Assembly: GCA_964554135.1 (NCBI GenBank)
Contig: CAZKNM010000004.1
Coordinates: forward strand, 1 to 53,838
Source of the DNA: an uncultured Melioribacteraceae bacterium
Lineage (GTDB): Bacteria > Bacteroidota > Ignavibacteria > Ignavibacteriales > Melioribacteraceae
Length of the DNA: 53,838 bases
Direction: 5' to 3'
Shown here: positions 38,302 to 49,365 of the stretch, one piece after another
How positions within the stretch are numbered: the first letter of the stretch is position 1
Layout of the letters: the number at the start of each line of letters is the position of its first letter
Notes under the pieces: generated by a model
The model's input: only the letters and a program-made list of their open reading frames with translations
What the model was told of the DNA's origin: nothing
Databases searched by the model: none
Position numbers and translations under genes: made by a program

Positions 38302-39291
38302 ATGATCAAACATATTCTCTCAATATTGTTGGGGATCGTTTTAACAATAAGTAATATACGCGCCCAGAAAGAGCAGTGGACAATATTTAATACTTATAAT
38401 TCCGGTCTTCCGGTTAATTCTATCCATACCATTGTTATCGATCAATACAATGTTAAGTGGATTGGAACTTGGGGTGGTGGATTGGTAAAATACGACGATG
38501 AATCCTGGTCAGTTTTCGATACAACTAACTCCGGTCTTCCTCATAATACAATTTATACGATAAAGATTGATCGTGAGAATAATAAATGGATCGGAACGTT
38601 TGGTGGAGGAGTTGCCAAGTATGATGATACAAAGTGGATTATTTACGACAAATCGAATTCAGGCTTGCCTCATGATTGGATTTACGCGATCACAATAGAT
38701 AAAACCGGAAATAAATGGATAGGCACATGGGGCGGAGGGCTAGCTGCTTTTGATAATAAGAACTGGGAAATATATAATACTTCTAATTCGCCTTTACCTA
38801 ATATAAAAGTCACAGCACTTGCGGTTGATTTTAAAAATAATATTTGGATTGGTACCAGCGGTGAATTAGTGATGTTTGATGGACGGGATTGGTACAATAG
38901 TATTGATTTAAATATCTATCCTACCATTGAGGGTGTTTATGCTTTTCATGTTGATGAAAATGGAAAAGTCTATATTGGTATAAAGTTCGGAGGAATCAAT
39001 ATAATTGATGGGAAGAAATATAAATCCTTAACTAAAGAAAATTCCGGCCTGCCTTATGACGGAGTCTCATCACTCACTACGGATATAGATGGTAATATTT
39101 GGATAGCAAATTTCGGGTCGGGCTTGATTAAGTATGATGGAATGAATTGGATTGTATATAATTCTTCGAATTCAAGCTTACCTGATGATAATACTTTTTC
39201 AGTTACTATTGATCGGTTTAACAATAAGTGGATAGGTACTTACAGCGGAGGCTTAGTAATTTTTAACGAACAGGGTTACTCATCAAAATAA
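38302..39291 (+). CDS. Secreted seven-bladed beta-propeller made only of two-component-regulator propeller (Reg_prop) repeats
   Basis: A signal peptide is followed by seven units of about 45 aa. Their consensus is NSGLP.n.I..i.iD..NnKWIGT.GGGl..yD...W.iy. No Y_Y_Y, kinase or DNA-binding domain follows. Confidence 0.75.
   Translation: MIKHILSILLGIVLTISNIRAQKEQWTIFNTYNSGLPVNSIHTIVIDQYNVKWIGTWGGGLVKYDDESWSVFDTTNSGLPHNTIYTIKIDRENNKWIGTFGGGVAKYDDTKWIIYDKSNSGLPHDWIYAITIDKTGNKWIGTWGGGLAAFDNKNWEIYNTSNSPLPNIKVTALAVDFKNNIWIGTSGELVMFDGRDWYNSIDLNIYPTIEGVYAFHVDENGKVYIGIKFGGINIIDGKKYKSLTKENSGLPYDGVSSLTTDIDGNIWIANFGSGLIKYDGMNWIVYNSSNSSLPDDNTFSVTIDRFNNKWIGTYSGGLVIFNEQGYSSK
38398..39267 (+). repeat. Seven tandem coding repeats of about 135 nt (Reg_prop blades)
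   Basis: The NSGLP...KWIGT.GGG unit recurs at protein level across the ORF. The DNA copies are diverged, so this is not a recent duplication. Confidence 0.7.
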
Positions 39292-39539: not shown

Positions 39540-39568
39540 TTGACAAATAACTTGGCATATGTTAAATT
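39540..39568 (+). promoter_or_regulatory. Candidate sigma70-like promoter in the long leader upstream of the TonB-dependent receptor
   Basis: TTGACA (39540-45) is followed by a 17-nt spacer and TAAATT (39563-68). It lies in a 594-bp AT-rich non-coding region. The promoter rules for this lineage are unknown to me. Confidence 0.35.
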
Positions 39569-39885
39569 CAATTTAAAAATACCAGATATCTTACTACGCA
39601 AGGGTGCTTGAAGTAAGATAAAGTTAGAAAATAAAACAGAATTTCATATTTTTATTCCGTTAAGTTTATGGGGGAATAAAAACATTTTTTCTATACCAAT
39701 TAGACTTATGATAAAAAAATTGTGTTCCATAAGTACCGATTTTTTACCTCGATTATTAGACAAAATTTTTTCTATATAGTAAAAGTAAAATAATAATTTA
39801 ACTAGAAAAGGAGGTGAGGTTGAAAAAAAGTTTACAATTTTTTCATTTCCCAACCCATTTTTAATTAACTAATGAGGAGAAAAAT

Positions 39886-42870
39886 ATGCATCGAAGAATT
39901 TTTTACGTTTTGTTTTTCCTAACTCTTATACCGACTCTTTTGATGGCGGGTACAAGGGGAAGGATTAAGGGGACCGTTGTGGATCTTCAAACGGGGGATC
40001 CCCTAATTGGTGCAAACGTAATTGTAATGGGTACTAGTATCGGCGCTGCAACCGATGCAAACGGGGATTTCCTGCTTCTGAATCTTGAAGCTGGAGTTTA
40101 TGATGTTCGTGCTTCATACCTCGGGTACCAGACAATCACACTTACTAATGTGAGAGTTAATGCTGATTTAACTACTTACATTACCTTCGACCTACCAAGC
40201 GAGGAAGTGCAAGTAGGTACGGTCACAATTATAGCAGAAAGACCTCTTATTCAGAAAGACGCTACAAACGCAACGAGAATTACCTCGAGCGAAGATATTC
40301 AAGCTCTTCCAATAAGAGGCGTTAATAATATTCTTGGTTTAACTGCCGGTGTTGTTCTTCAGAACAATTATGTTTATATCCGCGGTGGTAGAAGAGACGA
40401 AGTTGGCTATTACTTGGAAGGTGTCTCTATTACCAACCCGATGGCTGGAGGTCGTGCAGTTACCATTTCTCAGGATGCATTGGAAGAAATTCAGGTTCAA
40501 TCCGGTGGTTATACTGCTGAATTCGGCGGAGCTAATGCAGGTATCGTCCGTCAGCAGTTAAGATCCGGTAGTACACAATTCAAAGCCAGCTTTGAATACA
40601 TTACTGATAACGTCACTTTCAAGAGCAAAGACGATGCTTTTGACGGTGAAAAAAGATTAGGTGCATTCTGGTGGGGATACAACGAAATTAGTGCTACTTT
40701 AAGTGGTCCTATTTTCGATCCGAAATATAAATTTTTCTTTAATTTTAATAATGTGTACCAAAGAGATGATAATCCTCAACCATGGCCTGGTATTAATTTA
40801 GGTCGGGTTGTTGGAGAAACGGGAGATGTTCTTGAGAACTTCTATATTCCCGCTGGTCCAACGTATGCAAATTCAATGAATGTCTATACTTATTCAGGTA
40901 CAATGAACTTAGATTTCACACCTATTCTAATTAGGTTATCCGGAACTTATACAGATACTAAAAATGATATCGGGCAAAGAGCAGGTCAGTTAAATTTTCT
41001 TAATCCACGCGTTGGAGAACAATTATTGGCCAATGGTGCTTTCTCTGCTAGATTAACGCATGTTCTCAGCCCAACTATGTTTTATGAAATTTCCGGTGGT
41101 TATTTCTTACAAACAAGAACAGATCAAGATCCTTACTTAAAAGATAATTACTGGGCTTACGGCGATAGTCTTGCCAATGCCGATTTTGGTTGGACCTGGA
41201 CAAGGTCAGCCAACGATATTTTAAACGGTGTTGTTGGACGCTATCAAAGACCAACTAGGTTAAATATCCAGGGATTCGATTTCACTGCTCCTGGTGAAGT
41301 TCCCTCTGCTTATTTGTTGCAGGATAGAACATCTTGGAGTGTTAACGGTGCTTTGTCATTCTTGATCGGCAAAGTTCATTCCTTCAAGATTGGTGGTGAG
41401 TATCAGCAATATACTATAAGGCAATGGAATATACCTGGCAACACTGTACAAATGGGATTTGCAGATAAAGTTGCAAGAGGTGATGATCTCACCCAAATCA
41501 TGGTAACCTCAGGTGTTGACAACCTCGGATACGATGTGTTTGCTCAAGAATCTGATGTAGAAGGTCTCTGGGGAGCGAAGAAACCCGTATTTGCCGCAGC
41601 TTATATACAAGACAGAATTGAATTTGAAGATATAATCTTGAACGTCGGTTTAAGATACGATTATATTGATATCGATAACTATACTATGGTTGATCCTTCA
41701 CAACCTGAATTCAGTATCAACTATAATAGTGGCGCAATTGTCGAAGACGGTTGGGTAAAAACCGAAAGCTTCAGCTCTGTAAGTCCGAGACTTGGTTTCT
41801 CATTCCCTGTTACCGACAGAACAGTATTCCATGCTCAGTTCGGTAAGTTCATTCAGCAGCCAAGATTAGGCGATCAATACCAAGGTCCTTATAGAACCGG
41901 TTTCGAATTAAGAGGCGGTTTCCATATTTCTCAGCCTACAGGTAGAGATGTTAGACCTACTCGTACAACACAATATGAGGTTGGTTTCACTCAACAGTTA
42001 ACAGACTTTATGTCGTTCGACATTACCGGTTATTATAGAGACGTAAAGGATCAAGTTATATTTGTATTACAACAGGTTGAAAGAACATCTCCATTTGCCG
42101 GTTATTATTCAATGTCTAACGGTGACTTTGCAACTACAAAAGGTATCGAATTAACATTGAATATGCGTCGTTATGAAAGAATGTCAATGAATGCAACATT
42201 ATCATTCCAAGATGCTAGGGGAACAGGTTCATTCCCGAGCTCCAATAATGGTATTGTAGCAGCACCACTTGATAACGTAACTATATTTACTCCTGCATAT
42301 GTGACACCGCTTTCATATGAGAATGCTTTTTCCGGGAATATTAATATTGATTACAGATTCGGTCCTAACGATGGTCCGGAAATATTGCATGATTTCGGTA
42401 TCTCGGTTCTCGCAACATTTAACAGCGGTCATCCATTTACACGAGGACAAAGTGGCGCATTAAACTATGAAACCGACTCAAGATTCAGACAAGCAATTGA
42501 ACCATTGAACGCCTCGAGCACACCATCTGTTTTCAATGTTGATCTAAGAGTCGATAAGACCTTCCATATTTGGGATAGACTCTCTGCCAATGTTTATGTT
42601 TACGTGATTAACATATTTGATGCTCTTAATCAGTTCAACGTATTCGGCAGAACAGGTTCAACTGAAGATGATGGATATATCACTCAACCGGCAATCCAAG
42701 AAAATCTAGTTGCGAATTACGGCGAAAGCTATCTCGATTTATATAACGCTATTCAGATTGATTATCAGAGAGGATACGGTGGAGGCGGTAGCGCATTCGT
42801 TCCTGCTGAATCAGGTTTCTTGTACGGTCCGCCTCGTCAAATTAGATTTGGCATTAGATTAGAATACTAA
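39886..42870 (+). CDS. TonB-dependent outer-membrane receptor with N-terminal CarboxypepD_reg domain
   Basis: A signal peptide is followed by GRIKGTVVDLQTGDPLIGANVIVMGTSIGAATDANGDF...ASYLGYQT. The plug region contains a TonB-box-like VQVGTVTIIA and IRGGRRDEVGYYLEGVSITNP. The ORF is 994 aa long and ends FGIRLEY. A GAGGAG SD lies upstream. Confidence 0.85.
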   Translation: MHRRIFYVLFFLTLIPTLLMAGTRGRIKGTVVDLQTGDPLIGANVIVMGTSIGAATDANGDFLLLNLEAGVYDVRASYLGYQTITLTNVRVNADLTTYITFDLPSEEVQVGTVTIIAERPLIQKDATNATRITSSEDIQALPIRGVNNILGLTAGVVLQNNYVYIRGGRRDEVGYYLEGVSITNPMAGGRAVTISQDALEEIQVQSGGYTAEFGGANAGIVRQQLRSGSTQFKASFEYITDNVTFKSKDDAFDGEKRLGAFWWGYNEISATLSGPIFDPKYKFFFNFNNVYQRDDNPQPWPGINLGRVVGETGDVLENFYIPAGPTYANSMNVYTYSGTMNLDFTPILIRLSGTYTDTKNDIGQRAGQLNFLNPRVGEQLLANGAFSARLTHVLSPTMFYEISGGYFLQTRTDQDPYLKDNYWAYGDSLANADFGWTWTRSANDILNGVVGRYQRPTRLNIQGFDFTAPGEVPSAYLLQDRTSWSVNGALSFLIGKVHSFKIGGEYQQYTIRQWNIPGNTVQMGFADKVARGDDLTQIMVTSGVDNLGYDVFAQESDVEGLWGAKKPVFAAAYIQDRIEFEDIILNVGLRYDYIDIDNYTMVDPSQPEFSINYNSGAIVEDGWVKTESFSSVSPRLGFSFPVTDRTVFHAQFGKFIQQPRLGDQYQGPYRTGFELRGGFHISQPTGRDVRPTRTTQYEVGFTQQLTDFMSFDITGYYRDVKDQVIFVLQQVERTSPFAGYYSMSNGDFATTKGIELTLNMRRYERMSMNATLSFQDARGTGSFPSSNNGIVAAPLDNVTIFTPAYVTPLSYENAFSGNINIDYRFGPNDGPEILHDFGISVLATFNSGHPFTRGQSGALNYETDSRFRQAIEPLNASSTPSVFNVDLRVDKTFHIWDRLSANVYVYVINIFDALNQFNVFGRTGSTEDDGYITQPAIQENLVANYGESYLDLYNAIQIDYQRGYGGGGSAFVPAESGFLYGPPRQIRFGIRLEY

Positions 42871-42915
42871 TATCTAATTTGAATGAATATTAAATCCATA
42901 TAATAGGAGTAAAAC

Positions 42916-44067
42916 ATGAACATAAAAATAATTAAGTATTTAAGCATCTTCCTATTGATAGCGGTATTTTCCATTCTAAACCTTCGTGCAGAAGGTGTAG
43001 GGGGAAATAAAGCCGAACTTCTGAATAGGACTTTCGGCACTCCCGCTAATACTCACTTTAATATTAACCTGATTTCTACCTGGTTATATTACGATGCAAG
43101 AGGGGATATAAATAACGCCGGTAACTCCGGTTTTGTTTATCCCAAAGGCAGTAACAGAGCTGTATTCTTTCAATCCGGATTTATCTGGGGCGGGGTAGTA
43201 GATGGTGAAATTAGAGTTGGTGGTACTGCATATAGAACAGGTATGACACCGGGTTGGGTTGAAAACGGTGTACCTGCCAGTCCCGATGCAGCCGATGTTC
43301 GTATATATAGAGTAAGACCCGATTATGCAACCGGCGATGTTTCATCAGAATTAGCTGATGGCGATGGTGTATCTATCGAAGCTATTAGAGCACAATATGA
43401 ATTAGACTGGAATCAATGGCCGGCACTTTACGGCGCTCCATACGAAGACGTTGATGGTGACGGCGCGTATGATGCTACGGTCGATATACCTGGTGTTCCC
43501 GGTGCCGATCAAACTATCTGGCACGTATGTAATGACTTTGACCCAGCACAAACCGATTATTTATATGGTTCTCTTCCAATGGGTCTTGAAGTTCAATATA
43601 CTTTCTGGGGATACAATACAGCCGGTGCTCTAGGCAGCACAATGTTCAGAAAGTATACGATGATTAACAAAAATATCGATGGATTGGATATTACCGATAT
43701 GTATGTTTCAATGTGGAGTGACCCTGACTTAGGTGATGCATCCGACGACTTTACAGGTTGCGATACTACCTTAAGTTTAGGATTTATTTATAATGCAAAT
43801 GCTTTTGATGCACAATATGGATATACTCCACCCGCAGGTGGATTCGACTTCTTCCAGGGTCCTATTATTGATGGTCTCCCAAGTGATGAAGCCATTTTCA
43901 AAGGACAAAGAGTTTACGGAAAGATAAACCTGCCAATGTCGGCATATTATTTCTTTATAAACAGTGACCCTGTTTATACCGATCCAACACAGGGCGAGTA
44001 TGCCAGAGGTACATTAGGATTCTACAATCTATTCGACAACTGGTCAGCCATTCCCGGTTCCGGATGA
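42916..44067 (+). CDS. Large secreted T9SS cargo protein of unknown function, N-terminal part (frame broken near 44035)
   Basis: It has an AGGAG SD and the signal peptide MNIKIIKYLSIFLLIAVFSILNLRA. An Asp-rich DVDGDGAYDATVDIPGVPG motif is present. The ORF ends abruptly while the +1 frame continues open. Confidence 0.6.
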   Translation: MNIKIIKYLSIFLLIAVFSILNLRAEGVGGNKAELLNRTFGTPANTHFNINLISTWLYYDARGDINNAGNSGFVYPKGSNRAVFFQSGFIWGGVVDGEIRVGGTAYRTGMTPGWVENGVPASPDAADVRIYRVRPDYATGDVSSELADGDGVSIEAIRAQYELDWNQWPALYGAPYEDVDGDGAYDATVDIPGVPGADQTIWHVCNDFDPAQTDYLYGSLPMGLEVQYTFWGYNTAGALGSTMFRKYTMINKNIDGLDITDMYVSMWSDPDLGDASDDFTGCDTTLSLGFIYNANAFDAQYGYTPPAGGFDFFQGPIIDGLPSDEAIFKGQRVYGKINLPMSAYYFFINSDPVYTDPTQGEYARGTLGFYNLFDNWSAIPGSG

Positions 44068-44137
44068 AGCAGGCGGTGGAACATCAAAATTCTGTCTGTC
44101 TGGTGATCCTATTGCAAGAACCGGCTGGATTGACGGT

Positions 44138-46684
44138 ATGCAGCATCCACCTGGAGATAGAAGATTAGGACAAGTCGCAGGTCCATTTACAATGGCTTAC
44201 GGTGATACTCAGGAAGTTGTTATTGCCGAGATGGCTGCCGGTGCACAGCCGGGAATTGATAGACTTGGTGCGCTTGGTCTTCTAAAATTCTATGACCTCG
44301 AAGCTCAATTAACTTATGATAACTTCTTCAACGTTCCTATTGCTCCTGCGATTCCGCAGGTAAGCGTAACTGAACTTGATAGAGAAATTGTTCTCGATTG
44401 GTCTTTGGATAGAGATGCAGTTGAAGCAACCGAAAGTCATGATCAGTTCGGATTTACTTTCCAGGGTTATAATGTCTATCAATTACCAACGGATTATGCA
44501 ACTATGGCCGAAGCGAGAAGAATAGCTACTTATGATAAATTTGACGGTATTGCTAAAATTGAAGGATTAGCATTCGACATTACATCGGGTGTTGTTACTC
44601 GAAAAGTTCTTCAATTCGGTTCAGACTCTGGTATTCAGAGATATATAAGTATTACAACCGATGCTTTGAGCGGCAGTACTCCTTTAGTAAACGGTACCAG
44701 GTATTATTTCGCAGTTACATCTTATGCATTTAATGCGGATCCTAATGCTGTACCGAACAACTTGGAGAATACATTGGCCCATATTACCGTTGTTCCTCAA
44801 GGACAGCTACCTGGTAACAGAATTTATACGGAAACCAGTGCTGGCGCCGAAGCTGATCAAGCAAGCGGTACGGCAAACGGTGCGTTTGAATGGTGGGTTG
44901 TTGATCCTACAAGAACTTCAGGGCATGAGTATGAAGTATTCTTTGATCTACAGCATTATTATTTGGATGTTGACGGTCATTGGAAGCATACAAATTATCC
45001 CGATAGAGTTGGTAAGAGAGGTGTAACTGATCAGTCAGCAGCCTATCTAACCGGTGCTCTTGTAACATCCACTACTGTAGGAACAGCCAATTTAACACTT
45101 ACCGTTGAGGGTATTGAAGATTCACCCGATTATAACTACGCAGATGGTGTTCTTATAAAATTACCACCGACTGTTGGTATCAATAGTGTTGAAGAACATT
45201 CTTCACGTGGTGGCCTACTTACTGAAATAGATTATGCTAACAATACTATTTTTGTTGGTGACAGCAGTAGATCTGCTTACGGCGGTTTCCAAGGCGGCGG
45301 TGAAACTATAGTTATAAACATCACTATGCCTACTCTTCCATTAACGCTATGGTTTAAGATATATGACGACGGCTGGGCTGAAAGTGATCCTGCATACGCA
45401 GGTTACGCAGCATTGGGCGGCGGACTTGTTGATGGAGAAGGCACATTAACTGTCAGTGAAATTGGTTATTCTTTCAGAACCCAAAATCACTGGAATATAA
45501 AAGACGTTACTGCTGATGAAGTCGTTGTTGAGGATCAAACCGTAATTGGAGGTATCGATTTTTATACGGGCGAGACACACTACGATTTGGATGGACCGAC
45601 ATTCGACGGATTACAAGGTGCGCTTACCGCCGGAAGCTATGAAACACCGATTAATTATTACAGCATTTCACTTGAATCACCTACCGGATTGACTACACTT
45701 TCAACCAGTGCAGGTGCAACAAGTACTAGACTTAGAATAATAAATTACACCTATTTCAGCGGTACTATTTCCAGCTGGGCTTACGATAATTTTGGTTTTG
45801 GTACAACTGTTATTGAAGAACTTCAACAGGATTACGAACTCAGATTTACCGGTGTTTGGGCACAGCGTACTTTAGCAGATGGCAGAACATATCATTACAT
45901 CGAAAGCGGCGGTCAGATGGCAACATTATTCGCAGGATCGAGTGCTGCAGCTGTAGCAGCTCATCCGGATAATCCTACTCCTGGTGTTGACAATGACTTC
46001 TTAGTAAGAATTCCGTTTGAAGTATGGAATGTTGATGATCCGGATAATGAATATCAAGTTAATTTTATGTTCCGAGATCGTGAACAACTTGCAACGTCAG
46101 ATCCAATGTATGCGTGGAATATAGCAAATAGAATGTATGCTGTTATAGTTAATTCACCATATGATGAAGCTACAGTAATTCCCGGTAATGCAAATCCTTT
46201 AAGTGACTTTGCTACCTGGGTTTTAGTTTTCTACGGAACGGATGCTCATTTGGGCGACGTTGTCAGCATTGTTTATGCTAATCCAATTCAGTTAGGTATT
46301 GATACCTGGACATTTACCGCTCCTGCAGCTCAATCATATAATGCTGAATTAGCTAAGCAAGACATACAGGATGAATTGAATGTATTCCCGAATCCATATT
46401 ATGGTGTAAACTCTCAGGAAATAAATAAGTATCAAAGGTTCGTTACATTCTCCCACTTACCGACTACTGCAACAATCAGAATATTCAACTTAGCCGGTCA
46501 ATTGGTAAGAACAATTGAAAAATCTGATGTAGGTCAATTCCAACGTTGGGATTTAATGAACGGAGCTGGACTACCCGTAGCTAGTGGTCTTTATTTAGCA
46601 TATATAGATATGCCAGATTTAGGAACTACTAAGGTACTTAAAGTAGCCATTATCCAGGAACAACAGATTCTGGATAGATTCTAG
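44138..46684 (+). CDS. Large secreted T9SS cargo protein, C-terminal part with type-A T9SS sorting domain
   Basis: This frame is open from 44018, well upstream of the first ATG. An FN3-like segment is visible (PQVSVTELDREIVLDW...FQGYNVYQL). The last 100 aa or so, FPNPYYG...ATIRIFNLAGQLVRTI...WDLMNGAGLPVASGLYLAYI, match the Por_Secre_tail pattern. Confidence 0.7.
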   Translation: MQHPPGDRRLGQVAGPFTMAYGDTQEVVIAEMAAGAQPGIDRLGALGLLKFYDLEAQLTYDNFFNVPIAPAIPQVSVTELDREIVLDWSLDRDAVEATESHDQFGFTFQGYNVYQLPTDYATMAEARRIATYDKFDGIAKIEGLAFDITSGVVTRKVLQFGSDSGIQRYISITTDALSGSTPLVNGTRYYFAVTSYAFNADPNAVPNNLENTLAHITVVPQGQLPGNRIYTETSAGAEADQASGTANGAFEWWVVDPTRTSGHEYEVFFDLQHYYLDVDGHWKHTNYPDRVGKRGVTDQSAAYLTGALVTSTTVGTANLTLTVEGIEDSPDYNYADGVLIKLPPTVGINSVEEHSSRGGLLTEIDYANNTIFVGDSSRSAYGGFQGGGETIVINITMPTLPLTLWFKIYDDGWAESDPAYAGYAALGGGLVDGEGTLTVSEIGYSFRTQNHWNIKDVTADEVVVEDQTVIGGIDFYTGETHYDLDGPTFDGLQGALTAGSYETPINYYSISLESPTGLTTLSTSAGATSTRLRIINYTYFSGTISSWAYDNFGFGTTVIEELQQDYELRFTGVWAQRTLADGRTYHYIESGGQMATLFAGSSAAAVAAHPDNPTPGVDNDFLVRIPFEVWNVDDPDNEYQVNFMFRDREQLATSDPMYAWNIANRMYAVIVNSPYDEATVIPGNANPLSDFATWVLVFYGTDAHLGDVVSIVYANPIQLGIDTWTFTAPAAQSYNAELAKQDIQDELNVFPNPYYGVNSQEINKYQRFVTFSHLPTTATIRIFNLAGQLVRTIEKSDVGQFQRWDLMNGAGLPVASGLYLAYIDMPDLGTTKVLKVAIIQEQQILDRF

Positions 46685-46709
46685 TTATCAAACATCAAGG
46701 AGATTGAAA

Positions 46710-47741
46710 ATGAAAAAAATAAAATTAACATTGTTTTTCGTACTCATTTCCCTGATATCTGCGGGTAGTATTTTTGCCAGCGGTGGAAATAGAAACGGTA
46801 CCGCTGGGGCAATGCAATTGTTGATTCCCGTAGGTGCTCGTGGTATCGCAATGGGAGGCGCTACGCTGACCAATTCTACCGGTATACAGGCACTCTATTG
46901 GAACCCGGCTAATCTCGCAATATCAGACTATACCACCAATGTTCTATTCTCTCATATGAATTATATTGCAGACATTGGTGTTGAATACGGTGCAGTATCT
47001 ACTAGTCTGGAAGGATTAGGTACAATTGCTTTCAGCATTAAAGCATTGAGTATCGATCCGATAATTGTTACAACCATATCAAATCCGGATGGTACAGGCC
47101 AAACATTTACACCAAACTTTATGGTTATCGGTCTAACCTACTCCAGAATGCTTAGTGACCGAATATCGGTTGGTATAACCGGTAATTTGATAACCGAAGA
47201 ACTTGCTTTGGTTAAAGCTAGTGGTGTTTCTTTCGATATTGGTGTTGCATATAGACACTTAGCCAATATTCAAGGATTGAGCCTTGCTATCTGTATGAAA
47301 AACCTCGGACCTCAAATGAAGTACGATGGTTCTGGATTATATATTTCAGCTACAGCAGAGGCATTAGAACGTCCTGCACAGTTCTACAAAATCGAAGCTG
47401 CAGCTTTTGAATTACCTTCGACACTTGAAATTGGTTTGGGATATCAGTACGATTTCAACGAATCCAATTCTCTTCAAGTATCGGGTGTTTTCCAGAACAA
47501 CAACTTCTGGGGTGATGAATATAAATTCGGTGCTGAATATAATTTCGATAACTTCCTTTTCTTTAGAGGCGGTTATCAACTCACACCTGATTTAGAGACT
47601 GAGGACAACATCTACGGATTATCGGCCGGAGTTGGTATTAACTACGACCTCGGTGGTGTTAATCTGAAGATCGACTATGCATACAGACAAGTTGAATACT
47701 TTGATGATAATCATGTAATAACCGTTGGTATTGGGTTATAA
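46710..47741 (+). CDS. PorV/PorQ-family outer-membrane barrel (T9SS cargo shuttle-like)
   Basis: An AAGGAG SD lies 7 nt before ATG 46710; the ORF track starts at TTG 46704. After the signal peptide comes GTAGAMQLLIPVGARGIAMGGATLT...ALYWNPANLA, as in PorV/LptO N-termini. The rest is beta-strand-rich and ends in a short hydrophobic beta-strand-like segment, VITVGIGL. Confidence 0.75.
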   Translation: MKKIKLTLFFVLISLISAGSIFASGGNRNGTAGAMQLLIPVGARGIAMGGATLTNSTGIQALYWNPANLAISDYTTNVLFSHMNYIADIGVEYGAVSTSLEGLGTIAFSIKALSIDPIIVTTISNPDGTGQTFTPNFMVIGLTYSRMLSDRISVGITGNLITEELALVKASGVSFDIGVAYRHLANIQGLSLAICMKNLGPQMKYDGSGLYISATAEALERPAQFYKIEAAAFELPSTLEIGLGYQYDFNESNSLQVSGVFQNNNFWGDEYKFGAEYNFDNFLFFRGGYQLTPDLETEDNIYGLSAGVGINYDLGGVNLKIDYAYRQVEYFDDNHVITVGIGL

Positions 47742-47774
47742 GATTATTGTCGGAGTTTTTAAACTGAATTCTCT

Positions 47775-47814
47775 AACCCGAGCTTTCATATTGAAAGCTC
47801 GGGTTTTTTATTTT
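47775..47814 (+). terminator. Rho-independent terminator
   Basis: A perfect 13-bp stem, AACCCGAGCTTTC (47775-87) / GAAAGCTCGGGTT (47793-805), encloses a 5-nt loop. It is followed by TTTTATTTT. Confidence 0.88.
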
Positions 47815-47976: not shown

Positions 47977-49365
47977 ATGTCGAAATTCATTTCATCCCTT
48001 ATTCTGTTGATGATGATTATTGGTTGTAAGTTTACATATGCGCAGGATAATCTAAACTTTGAGTTTGATTATGCAAAGTTTACATATGATTCTACATCTG
48101 TTTTTATGGAGTTTTATTATTCTTTTGATCAAAGAAGCCTTATTCCAACGAAAACCGATCAAGGATTTTTAGTTGAAGCAATTTTGCACTTAGAGATGAA
48201 AAATATTGATACAGAAGAAGATTATATAAACAGAGATTGGAAAGTACAGAATATTTTACCCGATACGTCCATGGCAAGTCTGGATCAAAACTTAGTTGGT
48301 AAGATAGCCTTTGTTATACCTAAAGGGAATTATAATCTGGTAGCGGAAGGGAAAGATGTAAATAACGAAGCATCAATGAAAAAAATTGATGAAACAGTAA
48401 TAGTGCAGCCTTTTGCTACGGATAAAATTGCTGTGAGTGATATTCAGCTTTCCACAAATATAGTTAGGGATGGTGCTAATCCGAATTCGTTATTTTATAA
48501 AAACACTTTGGAAATTATCCCTAATCCGGCGATGTTATACAGCGAAACTTTTCCTGTACTTTTTTATTATACCGAACTTTATAATCTATTGAAGAATAGT
48601 ACTTCAAAATCATATAAGCTTCAAAAGGTCTTATATAATAGTCGTGGTTATACGGTGTATGAAACTTCCCTGCCTTTAGCGGCTAATCAAAATTCGATTG
48701 TTGATGTTGGATTAATCAATTTATCGAAATACCCCAGCGATACTTATAATTTAATACTTAGTGTTACAGATGAATCAACGAGTAATTCTTCATATTCCAG
48801 CAAAAGGTTTTATTTGTATAATCCCGGTGTGGTAGATACATTTGCTGAAAATCTTACGGATGTTGGATTTCTTGAAAGCGAATACTCAGTATTGAATGAA
48901 GAGGAATGTGATGATTTATTCAGCAAATCGCATTATGTACTAAGTGGAGATCAAAGTTCCGAATATAAGAAATTAACATCTCTGGAAGCTAAAAGGAAAT
49001 ATCTATACACTTTTTGGAAAGCAAAAGATATTAATCCCACAACTGCAAGAAATGAATTCAAAGAGTTATATATGGAAAGAATCAATTATGCTAATGAAAA
49101 TTTTAGACACAAGTATAAAGAGGGATATTTAACGGATAGGGGAAGAGTATATATATTGTATGGTGTTCCTGATAATAAAGATTATCACTACAGTGAGATG
49201 AATCTAAAACCATATGAAATTTGGTATTACAATTCTATAGAAGCCGGAGTTCAATTTATATTTGGAGATGTAACTGGATTTTCAAATTATGAACTGATTC
49301 ATTCTTCAAAACGTGGTGAGGTAAAGAACGAAAACTGGCAGGATCGTCTAACAATGTTAAGATAA
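47977..49365 (+). CDS. GWxTD domain-containing protein (secreted, function unknown)
   Basis: It has a signal peptide. The C-terminal region reads EGYLTDRGRVYILYGVPDNKDYHYSEMNLKPYEIWYY...FIFGDVTGFSNYELIHS. This fits the GWxTD domain, with Tyr at the Trp position. Confidence 0.7.
   Translation: MSKFISSLILLMMIIGCKFTYAQDNLNFEFDYAKFTYDSTSVFMEFYYSFDQRSLIPTKTDQGFLVEAILHLEMKNIDTEEDYINRDWKVQNILPDTSMASLDQNLVGKIAFVIPKGNYNLVAEGKDVNNEASMKKIDETVIVQPFATDKIAVSDIQLSTNIVRDGANPNSLFYKNTLEIIPNPAMLYSETFPVLFYYTELYNLLKNSTSKSYKLQKVLYNSRGYTVYETSLPLAANQNSIVDVGLINLSKYPSDTYNLILSVTDESTSNSSYSSKRFYLYNPGVVDTFAENLTDVGFLESEYSVLNEEECDDLFSKSHYVLSGDQSSEYKKLTSLEAKRKYLYTFWKAKDINPTTARNEFKELYMERINYANENFRHKYKEGYLTDRGRVYILYGVPDNKDYHYSEMNLKPYEIWYYNSIEAGVQFIFGDVTGFSNYELIHSSKRGEVKNENWQDRLTMLR

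What the first reader, a model, noticed from the sequence alone, without database searches (positions are those of the whole stretch)
39886..47814. Operon-like unit: TonB-dependent receptor + 1250-aa T9SS cargo + dedicated PorV paralog (candidate undescribed outer-membrane system)
Three functions are packed head to tail on one strand. The TBDR occupies 39886-42870 and is followed by a 45-nt gap. The cargo occupies 42916-46684 and is followed by a 25-nt gap containing AAGGAG. The PorV-like barrel occupies 46710-47741. The unit closes with the strongest terminator in the window (47775-47814) and is preceded by the long structured leader. From established knowledge, PorV/LptO binds the C-terminal domains of T9SS cargo and shuttles them from the translocon. 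SusC-type TBDTs work with a surface partner, the SusD lipoprotein. No SusD-like gene is present here. My inference is that the giant CTD-anchored protein is the surface substrate-capture partner of this receptor, and that the PorV paralog is a private shuttle or anchor for it. An alternative follows the Myxococcus Oar precedent, where a TBDT is needed for protein export; on that view the barrel would participate in cargo export. No core T9SS genes (sprA, porKLMN) are in the window, so the unit would depend on machinery encoded elsewhere.
Basis: partly seen in the sequence, partly recalled or inferred. Interest (0 to 1): 0.7.

Follow-up and report, generated by a model that had tools for sequence, protein, structure and literature searches.

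The report
TonB receptor, surface protein, PorQ-like anchor
Ignavibacteria keep a three-gene outer-membrane cassette (a TonB-dependent transporter, a large secreted surface protein with an unusual type IX secretion tail, and its own PorV/PorQ-type barrel) that is inherited and duplicated as a block and that I could not find described; it probably forms a surface capture-and-import complex, but that function is inferred.

Summary
Two corrections are needed. The "1250-aa cargo" is split here by a +1 frameshift that lies exactly at an assembly-gap edge, so it is an artefact. The leader is long but not significantly structured.

The unit is real. Among 79 related genome loci, the receptor lies upstream of 60/63 full-length cargo genes and the barrel downstream of 68/71. 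Several genomes carry two or three deeply diverged copies, each with all three genes.

- **Receptor:** a plug-containing TonB-dependent transporter with an Oar-like layout. It is not SusC-type.
- **Barrel:** a PorV/PorQ-superfamily member that aligns over its whole length with PorQ. It scores far below the NCBIfam cut-offs for PorV and PorQ proper.
- **Cargo:** an all-beta protein with no Pfam family and no PorU peptidase domain. Its secretion domain resembles that of PorZ and carries an extra conserved tail, QEQQILDRF. Relatives without a neighbouring barrel lack this tail.

Best reading (about 0.45): the surface protein is tethered by a retained C-terminal domain to its own PorQ-like barrel, next to the transporter it serves. 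The main rival is a PorF/PorZ/PorQ-like secretion or attachment module. I rate it a new variant of known kinds. I found no published description.

The parts
39540..39568 (+). Promoter-like site: TTGACA, 17 nt, TAAATT, with TG before the second hexamer
   Evidence: Consensus scan only. Such sites are no more frequent in this region than in shuffled sequence. It lies in a 594-nt AT-rich spacer, and long AT-rich spacers precede the receptor gene in related loci (median about 500 nt).
39808..39885 (+). Conserved leader element: SD-like AAGGAGGT (39808-39815), short upstream ORF (TTG 39820 to TAA 39864), anti-SD-like AACCCATT (39852-39859) and the true SD GAGGAG (39874-39879)
   Evidence: The element aligns in 10 primary-class loci and is better conserved than the adjacent coding DNA. 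The predicted ACCCTT:AAGGAGT pairing is weak (-1.35 kcal/mol) and shows no covariation. The upstream ORF frame differs in the window.
39886..42870 (+). TonB-dependent transporter, 994 aa: signal peptide, CarboxypepD_reg N-terminal domain (27-114), TonB-box-like VTIIAERP, plug (124-219), large barrel ending in ...RLEY
   Evidence: Pfam hits. Across the family, 45/45 have CarboxypepD_reg + Plug, 16 match PF00593 and 14 match PF25183. The family profile matches the PhuR barrel (4e-10) and the colicin I receptor plug. SusC/RagA scores 65 bits against a cut-off of 368.
42916..46684 (+). Cargo gene, about 1255-1260 aa when repaired. It is read here as ORF A (42916-44067, frame 1) and ORF B (44018-46684, frame 2).
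   Evidence: ORFs. The merged protein matches more than 2,000 proteins; the listed full-length homologues are 1225-1298 aa at 46-74% identity. No Pfam family covers it and the family profile finds nothing among PDB sequences.
44035..44039 (+). Frameshift point (assembly artefact)
   Evidence: An N-gap in GenBank contig MHAE01000199.1 ends exactly at window position 44039. The homologue consensus has about 6 more residues here.
42994..44326 (+). Conserved N-terminal head of the cargo (about residues 27-470): a large, mostly beta domain with many invariant Asp residues
   Evidence: In the AF2 model of homologue P0022, residues 41-720 have pLDDT mostly above 90. Foldseek gives weak similarity to the beta-supersandwich parts of dextran dextrinase, GH116 and GH94 enzymes (E 4e-6 to 1e-3, TM about 0.2). 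The head family has 4,749 representatives at E<=1e-3.
44354..46378 (+). FN3-like domain followed by a variable run of beta-sandwich domains (the stalk)
   Evidence: The AF2 model of ORF B has mean pLDDT 82. Foldseek matches only generic Ig/FN3/macroglobulin chains. The middle part differs between size classes of 750, about 1090 and about 1270 aa.
46379..46654 (+). T9SS-type C-terminal domain, PorZ-like subtype (NVFPNPYY ... GLY ... TKVLKVAII)
   Evidence: The end of NCBIfam PorZ model NF052228 (positions 666-757) matches at 42 bits, in 36/36 family members. TIGR04183 scores 20.7 bits, below its cut-off of 23, and matches 32/36 members. Pfam PF18962 matches only 4/36. Foldseek's top hit for ORF B is PorZ 5M11.
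46655..46681 (+). Conserved C-terminal tail QEQQILDRF, which extends beyond the usual end of a type A C-terminal domain
   Evidence: The tail is present in the triad cargos. Synonymous sites vary freely, so selection acts on the peptide. It is absent from relatives without a neighbouring barrel, which end in KxxLLxK (L023, P0373, P0301, P0297).
46710..47741 (+). PorV/PorQ-family outer-membrane barrel, 343 aa, with signal peptide; SD AAGGAG at 46697-46702
   Evidence: NF033709 scores 186 bits (cut-off 90). PorQ scores 82.9 (cut-off 220, full-length alignment), PorV 73.3 (cut-off 250, N-terminal half only) and PorV2 67.5 (cut-off 325). The pattern is the same in 46/46 family members. The family profile matches F. 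johnsoniae PorV 6H3I_F at 4.6e-23.
47775..47814 (+). Intrinsic terminator closing the unit
   Evidence: 14-bp stem with 7 G-C pairs, a 3-nt loop and a T tract.
38302..39291 (+). Possible accessory gene: secreted single beta-propeller protein with Reg_prop repeats, 329 aa, no C-terminal secretion domain
   Evidence: Pfam Reg_prop. It matches the propeller part of the PorZ model (2.7e-18, 65.8 bits, cut-off 260) and HTCS sensor propellers (3V9F, 3.6e-36). It lies next to the triad in 15 loci, upstream of the receptor or just downstream of the barrel, in either orientation.
47977..49365 (+). Possible accessory gene: GWxTD-domain protein, 462 aa, function unknown
   Evidence: PF20094 and TIGR04514 match. 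It lies downstream of the barrel, usually directly, on the same strand in 24 loci, and follows both triads in L029. In the window the terminator separates it from the triad.

Best explanation
The cassette encodes a three-part outer-membrane complex.

All three proteins carry Sec signal peptides, as their sequences show. The large protein is probably exported by the organism's type IX secretion system, which must be encoded elsewhere. This step is inferred from its C-terminal domain, which keeps the PNP, GxY and Lys motifs.

The C-terminal domain is a PorZ-like subtype with an extra conserved tail, QEQQILDRF. I infer that it is not cleaved. Instead it stays bound to the cognate PorQ-like barrel encoded next to it, as PorZ stays on PorQ and PorU on PorV. 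This would tether a beta-sandwich stalk about 1,100 residues long, with a conserved beta-supersandwich head, at the cell surface beside the TonB-dependent transporter encoded upstream.

The head would capture an extracellular ligand, most plausibly a glycan or other polymer fragment, and pass it to the transporter for TonB-powered import. This step is also inferred. The arrangement would work like SusC-SusD, with a T9SS-anchored protein in place of the SusD lipoprotein.

Shown here: gene order, co-inheritance, co-duplication, domain identities and the special C-terminal-domain tail. Inferred: physical complex formation, retention of the C-terminal domain, the ligand and the direction of transport.
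For: - **Synteny and operon-like spacing.** The receptor is upstream in 60/63 cases and the barrel downstream in 68/71, with median gaps of 35 and 21 nt. The window has a terminator only after the barrel gene.
- **Only these three families are near-universal neighbours**.
- **Co-evolution.** Pairwise identities of the three proteins correlate (Mantel r 0.81-0.90, p = 0.001) and the three genes cluster almost identically (the cargo separates one extra subgroup).
- **Whole-module duplication.** Barrels within one genome are 39-44% identical. Each has a closer counterpart (48-97%) in another genome, and the cargo's best match usually lies in the same or a closely related locus.
- **The receptor is a real TonB-dependent transporter.** The plug and a TonB-box-like motif are conserved in 45/45 members. 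That fits import.
- **The cargo has no recognisable enzyme domain.** It is all-beta. Its head resembles the supersandwich domains of carbohydrate-active enzymes. The same head occurs in other T9SS cargos located next to GH31 and amylase genes.
- **The C-terminal domain is PorZ-like** (36/36) and the barrel aligns full-length with PorQ.
- **The tail correlates with a neighbouring barrel** and is conserved at the peptide level.
- **Published precedents for retained C-terminal domains on cognate barrels:** PorU-PorV, PorZ-PorQ and type B domains with PorP/SprF (PMC10202324, PMC9143113, PMC12618676).
- **Precedent for a TonB-dependent receptor with a surface partner:** P. gingivalis IhtA-IhtB (PMC12094164). 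That IhtB is a T9SS substrate is from my own memory.
Against: - I have no direct evidence of a complex, of C-terminal-domain retention or of any ligand.
- The fold match of the head is weak (TM about 0.2, rmsd about 10 A).
- The head is the most conserved part, even between paralogues. The middle of the protein varies instead. That is not what simple diversification of ligand specificity predicts.
- The primary copy sits in a conserved housekeeping and envelope neighbourhood (dnaE ... triad, GWxTD, lipid A acyltransferase, heptosyltransferase, M23). It is not among catabolic genes or regulators, as polysaccharide utilisation loci usually are.
- No TonB/ExbBD genes are nearby.
- Some tail-bearing cargo copies lack their own receptor and barrel.
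Confidence: 0.45

Rival explanations
1. The cassette is a secretion or attachment module, not an uptake system. The receptor would be a PorF-like or Oar-like helper needed to export, mature or attach the cargo. The cargo, barrel and flanking beta-propeller protein would be the Ignavibacterial counterpart of the PorZ-PorQ arm of the T9SS attachment complex, perhaps handling a surface glycan or LPS.
For: - The cargo's C-terminal domain matches PorZ's, and the barrel aligns full-length with PorQ.
- A Reg_prop propeller protein matching the propeller part of the PorZ model flanks the triad in 15 loci.
- The primary triad is conserved next to lipid A acyltransferase and heptosyltransferase genes.
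- PorF is a TonB-receptor-like T9SS protein. In C. hutchinsonii, PorV co-purifies with SprA and a PorF-like receptor (PMC8564354).
- P. gingivalis porQ, porZ and porF mutants share a partial-secretion phenotype, and PorF is proposed to import glycans for A-LPS attachment (PMC12704123).
- Myxococcus Oar, a receptor with the same domain layout, is reported to be needed for protein export (from my own memory).
Against: - Outside the C-terminal domain the cargo shows no PorZ homology. It scores 42 bits against a cut-off of 260, and the match covers only the C-terminal domain. The model shows no propellers.
- The barrel scores far below the PorQ equivalog cut-off (83 against 220).
- Two or three deeply diverged triads per genome fit substrate-specific systems better than one core machine.
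- The plug is conserved, whereas one paper states that PorF lacks a plug domain (PMC8564354); another cites a database entry that predicts one (PMC12704123).
- I could not test homology to PorF because no PorF sequence or model was available.
Confidence: 0.25
2. The cargo and barrel form a surface adhesin or cell-coat protein with its own anchor. The receptor gene is merely co-transcribed or co-regulated, with no direct hand-over between the proteins.
For: - The cargo is a long all-beta stalk of FN3/Ig-like domains, similar to adhesins and S-layer proteins (one search includes S-layer and biofilm-protein hits).
- The head module also occurs in arrays of small T9SS cargos with no receptor nearby.
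- Tail-bearing cargo copies occur without a receptor (L056 and L077).
Against: The receptor is as tightly linked to the cargo (60/63) as the barrel is. Receptor identity also correlates with both partners (r 0.86 and 0.90). Such persistent linkage through duplication and across a whole class is hard to explain without a shared function.
Confidence: 0.15
3. It is the ordinary porU-porV pair: the roughly 1250-aa protein with a C-terminal secretion domain is the T9SS sortase PorU, followed by the general PorV.
For: Protein size, possession of a C-terminal secretion domain and a PorV-family gene directly downstream all mimic the porU-porV arrangement of Bacteroidota. The arrangement itself is recalled from memory.
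Against: - No PorU or peptidase C25 match appears in NCBIfam or Pfam.
- The family profile finds nothing among PDB sequences, although PorU 6ZA2 is in the PDB.
- Foldseek matches PorU only at E 1.5e-3 with probability 0.5, consistent with shared Ig-like and C-terminal domains.
- The family is multi-copy, and the barrel scores far below the PorV cut-off.
Confidence: 0.02

Closest known systems
PorZ-PorQ and PorU-PorV pairs of the T9SS attachment complex (Porphyromonas gingivalis)
   Same: In both, a surface protein keeps its C-terminal domain and is held on a cognate PorV/PorQ-family barrel (PMC10202324). Here the C-terminal domain matches that of PorZ and the barrel aligns full-length with PorQ.
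   Different: The passenger part is unrelated to PorZ propellers or the PorU C25 peptidase. The genes are adjacent, multi-copy and always preceded by a TonB-dependent transporter. The C-terminal domain has an extra QEQQILDRF tail. The barrel does not reach the PorQ or PorV equivalog cut-offs.
Type B C-terminal-domain cargos with cognate PorP/SprF shuttle or anchor proteins (Flavobacterium johnsoniae, P. gingivalis)
   Same: The logic matches. A specialised secretion-signal subtype is genetically linked to its own barrel paralogue, and some orphan cargos share a barrel (PMC12618676, PMC9143113). The orphan tail-bearing cargos here look similar.
   Different: The barrel family differs: PorV/PorQ rather than PorP/SprF (TIGR03519 scores 24 bits against a cut-off of 90.6). 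The C-terminal domain is type A-like rather than type B. No transporter belongs to those systems.
SusC-SusD (RagA-RagB) nutrient uptake pairs of Bacteroidota
   Same: A TonB-dependent transporter with an N-terminal carboxypeptidase-regulatory-like domain is encoded next to a surface-exposed partner, and the pair is present in several diverged copies per genome.
   Different: The transporter is not in the SusC/RagA family (65 bits against 368). The partner is not a SusD-like lipoprotein. It is a roughly 1250-aa T9SS-type protein that comes after the transporter gene and has its own anchor barrel.
PorF (PG0534) and CHU_1606, TonB-receptor-like proteins linked to the T9SS
   Same: An outer-membrane TonB-receptor-like protein is functionally or physically associated with PorV-family proteins. 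CHU_1606 co-purifies with PorV and SprA (PMC8564354).
   Different: Those genes are not adjacent to a cargo or a barrel gene. One paper reports that PorF lacks the plug domain (PMC8564354), although another cites a predicted plug-domain annotation (PMC12704123); here the plug is conserved. I could not test homology.
Oar-type TonB-dependent transporters (Myxococcus xanthus Oar; abundant in Acidobacteriota and related phyla)
   Same: The domain layout is the same: CarboxypepD_reg, plug and a large barrel. 14/45 family members match the Pfam barrel model PF25183 (OMP_b-brl_4), which I recall being built on Oar-type barrels.
   Different: Oar is not known to be encoded with a C-terminal-domain cargo or a PorV-family barrel. 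Its reported export role is recalled from memory and was not checked here.
IhtA-IhtB of P. gingivalis
   Same: A TonB-dependent receptor is encoded with a surface-exposed outer-membrane protein thought to prepare the ligand for it (PMC12094164).
   Different: IhtB is a small chelatase-like protein with no dedicated barrel gene. The proteins are unrelated to those here.

Membership tests
TonB-dependent transporter (receptor gene 39886-42870) | N-terminal plug domain inside a 22-strand-type barrel | tested here: met
   Pfam Plug scores 33.7 bits (cut-off 23.9) and matches 45/45 family members. PF00593 matches 16/45 (best 1e-30). The family profile hits the PhuR barrel at 4e-10 and the colicin I receptor plug.
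TonB-dependent transporter (receptor gene 39886-42870) | TonB box and dependence on TonB-ExbBD | tested here: inconclusive
   A TonB-box-like VTIIAERP motif lies between the N-terminal domain and the plug and is conserved in the family consensus. No TonB/ExbBD genes are in the window. Energy dependence cannot be tested with these tools.
SusC/RagA family with SusD partner | Match to TIGR04056 above its cut-off and an adjacent SusD-like gene | tested here: not met
   The score is 65 bits against a cut-off of 368, and only the N-terminal 130 positions align. No SusD-like gene is in the window or among the conserved neighbours.
Oar-like TonB-dependent transporter | CarboxypepD_reg N-terminal domain, plug and Oar-type barrel (PF25183) | tested here: inconclusive
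   The layout is present in all members. PF25183 matches 14/45 relatives but not the window protein at E<0.01.
T9SS type A C-terminal-domain cargo | C-terminal sorting domain (TIGR04183 / PF18962) with PNP, GxY and Lys motifs | tested here: inconclusive
   TIGR04183 scores 20.7 bits, just under its cut-off of 23, and matches 32/36 members at E<0.01. PF18962 matches only 4/36. The motifs NVFPNPYY, SGLY and TKVLK are visible in the sequence. Nine residues follow the usual end of the domain.
T9SS type A C-terminal-domain cargo | Export through SprA/PorV and presence of core T9SS genes in the genome | not testable with these tools
   Only this 53.8-kb contig is available and it has no core T9SS genes. 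One paper states that BLAST suggests the possible occurrence of T9SS in Ignavibacteriae (PMC5837995).
PorZ (NF052228) | Two beta-propellers plus C-terminal domain; equivalog cut-off 260 bits | tested here: not met
   The cargo scores 42 bits, over the C-terminal domain only (model positions 666-757). The AF2 models show beta-sandwiches and no propellers.
PorU sortase (peptidase C25) | Gingipain-like catalytic domain | tested here: not met
   No PorU or C25 match appears in NCBIfam or Pfam. The profile finds nothing among PDB sequences. Foldseek matches 6ZA2 only at E 1.5e-3 with probability 0.5.
PorV/PorQ superfamily (NF033709) | Match above the subfamily cut-off; FadL-like barrel related to PorV | tested here: met
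   The score is 186 bits against a cut-off of 90, and 46/46 relatives match. The family profile hits F. johnsoniae PorV 6H3I_F at 4.6e-23, followed by FadL-family TodX.
PorV proper (NF033710) and PorQ proper (NF033711) | Equivalog cut-offs of 250 and 220 bits | tested here: not met
   PorV scores 73.3 bits (N-terminal half only) and PorQ 82.9 bits (full length). Across 46 relatives the best E-values are only about 5e-29 (PorV) and 9e-30 (PorQ), scores that remain well under those cut-offs.
PorP/SprF family (TIGR03519) | Match above 90.55 bits | tested here: not met
   The score is 23.9 bits.

The most novel reading that the evidence does not exclude
The triad is a self-contained export-and-anchor device. 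The plug-containing TonB-type barrel would itself serve as the energised conduit, or an obligatory co-factor, for moving its neighbouring 1250-aa protein across the outer membrane. The PorQ-like barrel would then receive the tail-bearing C-terminal domain. This would be a minimal, SprA-independent relative of type IX secretion and a second example, after Oar, of a TonB-dependent transporter working outward.
Probability: 0.08. Interest if true: 0.9.

Novelty: new variant of a known kind. Interest (0 to 1): 0.62.

Why it matters
If the three proteins work together, a whole bacterial class solves the "surface partner for a TonB-dependent transporter" problem differently from Bacteroidota. Instead of a SusD lipoprotein it would use a type IX-secreted protein parked on a private PorQ-like barrel. 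That would link two outer-membrane systems normally studied apart, TonB-dependent transport and type IX secretion. It would also bear on an open question in the T9SS field: what the TonB-receptor-like PorF does, and why PorV co-purifies with such a receptor.

The finding also defines two things not described in the papers I could search:
- a large cargo head family with no Pfam model (4,749 representatives at 50% clustering);
- a recognisable subtype of the C-terminal secretion domain, with the tail QEQQILDR[FY], that predicts a cognate barrel.

Cultured carriers exist (Melioribacter and Rosettibacter), so the hypothesis can be tested directly.

Tried and rejected
- **porU-porV hypothesis.** Rejected: no C25 domain by sequence or fold.
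- **Frameshift as a pseudogene or programmed shift.** Rejected in favour of an assembly artefact.
- **Structured leader or known RNA.** Rfam finds nothing in the window, there are no tRNAs, and the fold z-score is -1.28. Only a short conserved SD/anti-SD-like element remains.
- **Hairpin at 46650-46677 inside the cargo's 3' end.** It arises from the codons for IQ...LD. Synonymous sites vary across loci, so it is not a conserved RNA structure.
- **Exact-sequence look-up of the barrel protein to find the source contig.** Not on record.
- **Literature searches.** PorV + TonB-dependent + Ignavibacteria, GWxTD and PorV2/PorQ-like gave no description of this cassette.
- **Homology of the receptor to PorF.** Not testable: no PorF sequence or model was available, and NCBIfam gave only generic TonB-receptor hits.

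Full report
**What is in the sequence.**
The + strand carries three genes:
- a 994-aa ORF at 39886-42870;
- a cargo-like gene at 42916-46684;
- a 343-aa ORF at 46710-47741.

The gaps are 45 and 25 nt. AAGGAG precedes the ATG at 46710. A terminator with a 14-bp stem and 7 G-C pairs follows at 47775-47805.

Two points need correcting.

First, the cargo is not one ORF. Frame 1 stops at 44067 and the rest is in frame 2 from 44018. The window is 99.5-100% identical to GenBank contig MHAE01000199.1 from Ignavibacteria bacterium RBG_13_36_8. An N-gap in that contig ends exactly at window position 44039, where the frame jumps. The homologue consensus has about six more residues at that spot. More than a hundred homologues are intact at 1225-1298 aa. 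The frameshift is an assembly artefact.

Second, the 594-nt upstream spacer is not significantly structured overall (z = -1.28).

**What the three proteins are.**

*Receptor.* It has a signal peptide, a CarboxypepD_reg domain and a plug. Across 45 relatives all keep these domains, 16 match the TonB barrel model and 14 match Pfam model PF25183 (OMP_b-brl_4), which I recall being built on Oar-type barrels. The family profile hits the PhuR barrel and the colicin I receptor plug in the PDB. It is a genuine TonB-dependent transporter but not SusC-type (65 bits against a cut-off of 368).

*Barrel.* It belongs to the PorV/PorQ superfamily (186 bits against a cut-off of 90). It is far below the cut-offs for PorV, PorQ and PorV2. 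It aligns with PorQ over its whole length but with PorV over only its N-terminal half. Its profile finds F. johnsoniae PorV at 4.6e-23.

*Cargo.*
- It has no Pfam family and no relative among PDB sequences.
- AlphaFold models of the window's ORF B (pLDDT 82) and of a 1069-aa homologue (residues 41-720 above 90) show an all-beta protein. It has a large N-terminal head, an FN3-like domain, a variable run of beta-sandwiches and a C-terminal domain.
- Foldseek links the head only weakly to the beta-supersandwich parts of dextran dextrinase, GH116 and GH94 enzymes. It links the C-terminal end to PorZ.
- PorU is matched only marginally and no C25 peptidase is present. The obvious alternative, an ordinary porU-porV pair, is therefore rejected.

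**The C-terminal domain is a special subtype.**
All 36 aligned family members match the last 92 positions of the NCBIfam PorZ model. They match it better than the generic type A model, which itself matches 32/36. The Pfam tail model hits only 4/36.

Triad cargos end in ...TK(I/V)LKxA(I/V)IQEQQILDR(F/Y). That is nine residues beyond the KxxLLxK end seen in relatives with the same head but no neighbouring barrel (L023, P0373, P0301, P0297, P0345, P0367). Synonymous codon positions in the tail vary freely, so the peptide itself is under selection.

**The unit is conserved and behaves as a block.**
A scan of one genome per species found at least 585 stretches encoding relatives of the cargo, and the 79 best loci were fetched. 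Most come from Ignavibacteriota. One is from Calditrichaceae, and several MAGs are labelled Bacteroidetes/Bacteroidota.

- Among full-length cargo genes with enough flank, 60/63 have the receptor directly upstream and 68/71 have the barrel directly downstream. Median gaps are 35 and 21 nt.
- In an unbiased clustering of all neighbouring ORFs, only these three families are near-universal. They occur in 80, 75 and 70 of 80 sources, and the next family occurs in 24.
- Pairwise identities of the three proteins are strongly correlated (r 0.81-0.90) and the three genes cluster almost identically (the cargo separates one extra subgroup).
- Several genomes carry two triads, sometimes in tandem (L004, L011, L047, L022, L028, L029). 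Within a genome the barrels are only 39-44% identical. Each has a closer counterpart (48-97%) in another genome, and in four of the five cases the cargo it travels with has its best match in the same or a closely related locus. The whole module was therefore duplicated long ago and its partners stayed together.
- Cargo size classes (about 750, 1090 and 1270 aa) share the head and the C-terminal domain and differ in the middle.
- A few tail-bearing cargo copies have no receptor or barrel of their own (L009, L042, L056, L077). One barrel may therefore serve more than one cargo.

**Context.**
The window runs as follows:
- a cell-division cluster;
- a large polysaccharide-synthesis cluster;
- accA, dut, dnaE, an enoyl reductase, an acyl-CoA dehydrogenase and thioredoxin;
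- a Reg_prop propeller protein;
- the triad;
- a GWxTD protein, a lipid A acyltransferase, a heptosyltransferase, an M23 peptidase, bactofilin and ATP synthase genes.

It holds no core T9SS genes, no SusD and no TonB/ExbBD.

The stretch from dnaE to M23 is conserved around the 'primary' triad in about two dozen loci. Two neighbours stand out:
- The GWxTD gene lies downstream of the barrel, usually directly, in 24 loci and follows both triads in L029.
- The Reg_prop propeller protein lies next to the triad in 15 loci, usually directly, on either side and in either orientation. It matches the propeller part of the PorZ model (2.7e-18).

**How it most likely works.**
Published work shows three things. 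PorU and PorZ keep their C-terminal domains and sit on PorV and PorQ. Type B cargos depend on cognate PorP/SprF barrels encoded next to them. Orphan cargos can share a barrel (PMC10202324, PMC9143113, PMC12618676).

The triad has the same logic: a PorZ-like, tail-bearing C-terminal domain and a PorQ-like barrel. I therefore infer that the cargo is exported by the T9SS and stays tethered to its own barrel.

The transporter is as tightly linked to the cargo as the barrel is, and it keeps a plug and a TonB-box-like motif. The cargo has no enzyme domain. Its head resembles carbohydrate-binding supersandwich domains and recurs in T9SS cargos next to GH31 and amylase genes. The best reading is a surface capture protein feeding a TonB-dependent importer, a SusCD-like arrangement built from T9SS parts (confidence about 0.45).

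**Main rival.**
The parallels to PorF, PorZ and PorQ are notable:
- PorF is a TonB-receptor-like T9SS protein.
- C. hutchinsonii PorV co-purifies with SprA and a PorF-like receptor (PMC8564354).
- porQ, porZ and porF mutants behave alike, and PorF is proposed to import glycans for A-LPS attachment (PMC12704123).

With the flanking PorZ-like propeller and the LPS genes nearby, the triad could be a secretion or attachment module rather than a nutrient system (about 0.25).

Several observations argue against this. The module is multi-copy. The plug is conserved. The cargo has no PorZ homology outside the C-terminal domain. The barrel does not reach the PorQ cut-off. I could not test homology to PorF.

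**Leader.**
The spacer as a whole is not structured. In ten primary-class loci, however, the last roughly 100 nt before the receptor gene are better conserved than the coding DNA. They contain an SD-like AGGAGGT about 85 nt upstream, a TTG-initiated upstream ORF of about 14-22 codons, an AACCCTTTCTT motif able to pair with the true SD, and then AAGGAG-ATG. The predicted pairing is weak and shows no covariation. It is a lead for translational control, not a finding.

**Novelty and verdict.**
Each part belongs to a known kind. The conserved three-gene combination, the tail-bearing subtype of the C-terminal domain and the cargo head family (4,749 representatives at E<=1e-3, no Pfam model) are not described in the literature I could search.

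I rate it a new variant of a known kind, with interest 0.62. Its interpretation is partly supported. Synteny and a dedicated barrel are shown. The capture-and-import function, export by the T9SS and co-transcription remain inferences.

Noticed in passing
window 43801-44039 and 46476-46713; L001 4330-4363 and 6799: The window and GenBank contig MHAE01000199.1 are two assemblies of the same organism. They differ only at N-gaps and at two 238-nt stretches that the GenBank version lacks. The GenBank protein P0005 (778 aa) is a chimera whose C-terminus reads into the barrel gene's signal peptide in another frame.
   Followed up: yes
window 39808-39885; L030-L034, L041, L043, L048, L059, L066 upstream of the receptor gene: A conserved leader of about 100 nt holds a second SD-like AGGAGGT, a short TTG-initiated upstream ORF whose stop overlaps the real SD in most loci, and an AACCCTTTCTT motif complementary to that SD. 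It may mediate translational control. No covariation is seen, and the upstream ORF frame differs in the window.
   Followed up: partly
window 38302-39291: A secreted 329-aa single beta-propeller protein with Reg_prop repeats and no C-terminal secretion domain. It matches the propeller part of the PorZ model and HTCS sensor domains. It sits beside the triad in 15 loci, usually directly, on either side and in either orientation. It may be a fourth component.
   Followed up: partly
window 47977-49365: A GWxTD-domain protein of unknown function lies downstream of the barrel gene, usually directly, in 24 loci, and follows both triads in L029. No paper in the searchable library mentions GWxTD.
   Followed up: partly
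window 46655-46681 and the same position in about 70 loci: The nine-residue tail QEQQILDR[F/Y] after the usual end of the C-terminal domain is nearly invariant at the peptide level. It marks cargos that have, or share, a PorQ-like barrel. The models place it as a short, low-confidence helix.
   Followed up: yes
L081/L082 1-9740; L083 8001-21367: The cargo head module also occurs in arrays of five small paralogues (547-735 aa). The two that were scanned, and the related P0367, have ordinary C-terminal secretion domains. It also occurs fused to BNR/PSII_BNR propellers in a 1788-aa T9SS cargo next to GH31 and amylase/CBM48 genes. No receptor or barrel is nearby in either case.
   Followed up: partly
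L056 9968-14887; L077 1-4575: Tandem pairs of minimal cargo versions of about 750 and 870 aa (head plus tail-bearing C-terminal domain, no stalk), with no receptor or barrel within 10 kb where that much flank is held (L056). They occur in genomes that also hold a full triad elsewhere.
   Followed up: partly
L016 1285-2835 and 7 other loci, directly upstream of the receptor gene: A protein of about 516 aa with a signal peptide, whose sequence looks like an outer-membrane protein, precedes the receptor gene in eight loci of one triad class. I did not characterise it.
   Followed up: no
window 8884-31798: A large surface-polysaccharide synthesis cluster lies between the cell-division cluster and dnaE. 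It includes a dehydratase/epimerase, a Wza-like SLBB protein, Wzz, three flippases, a repeat-unit polymerase, about ten glycosyltransferases and two sugar transferases; accA and a thioesterase gene lie within the stretch. All genes are on the + strand.
   Followed up: no
window 46650-46677: The scan calls a terminator-like hairpin inside the end of the cargo gene. It comes from the codons ATCCAG...CTGGAT (IQ...LD) and is not conserved across loci.
   Followed up: yes
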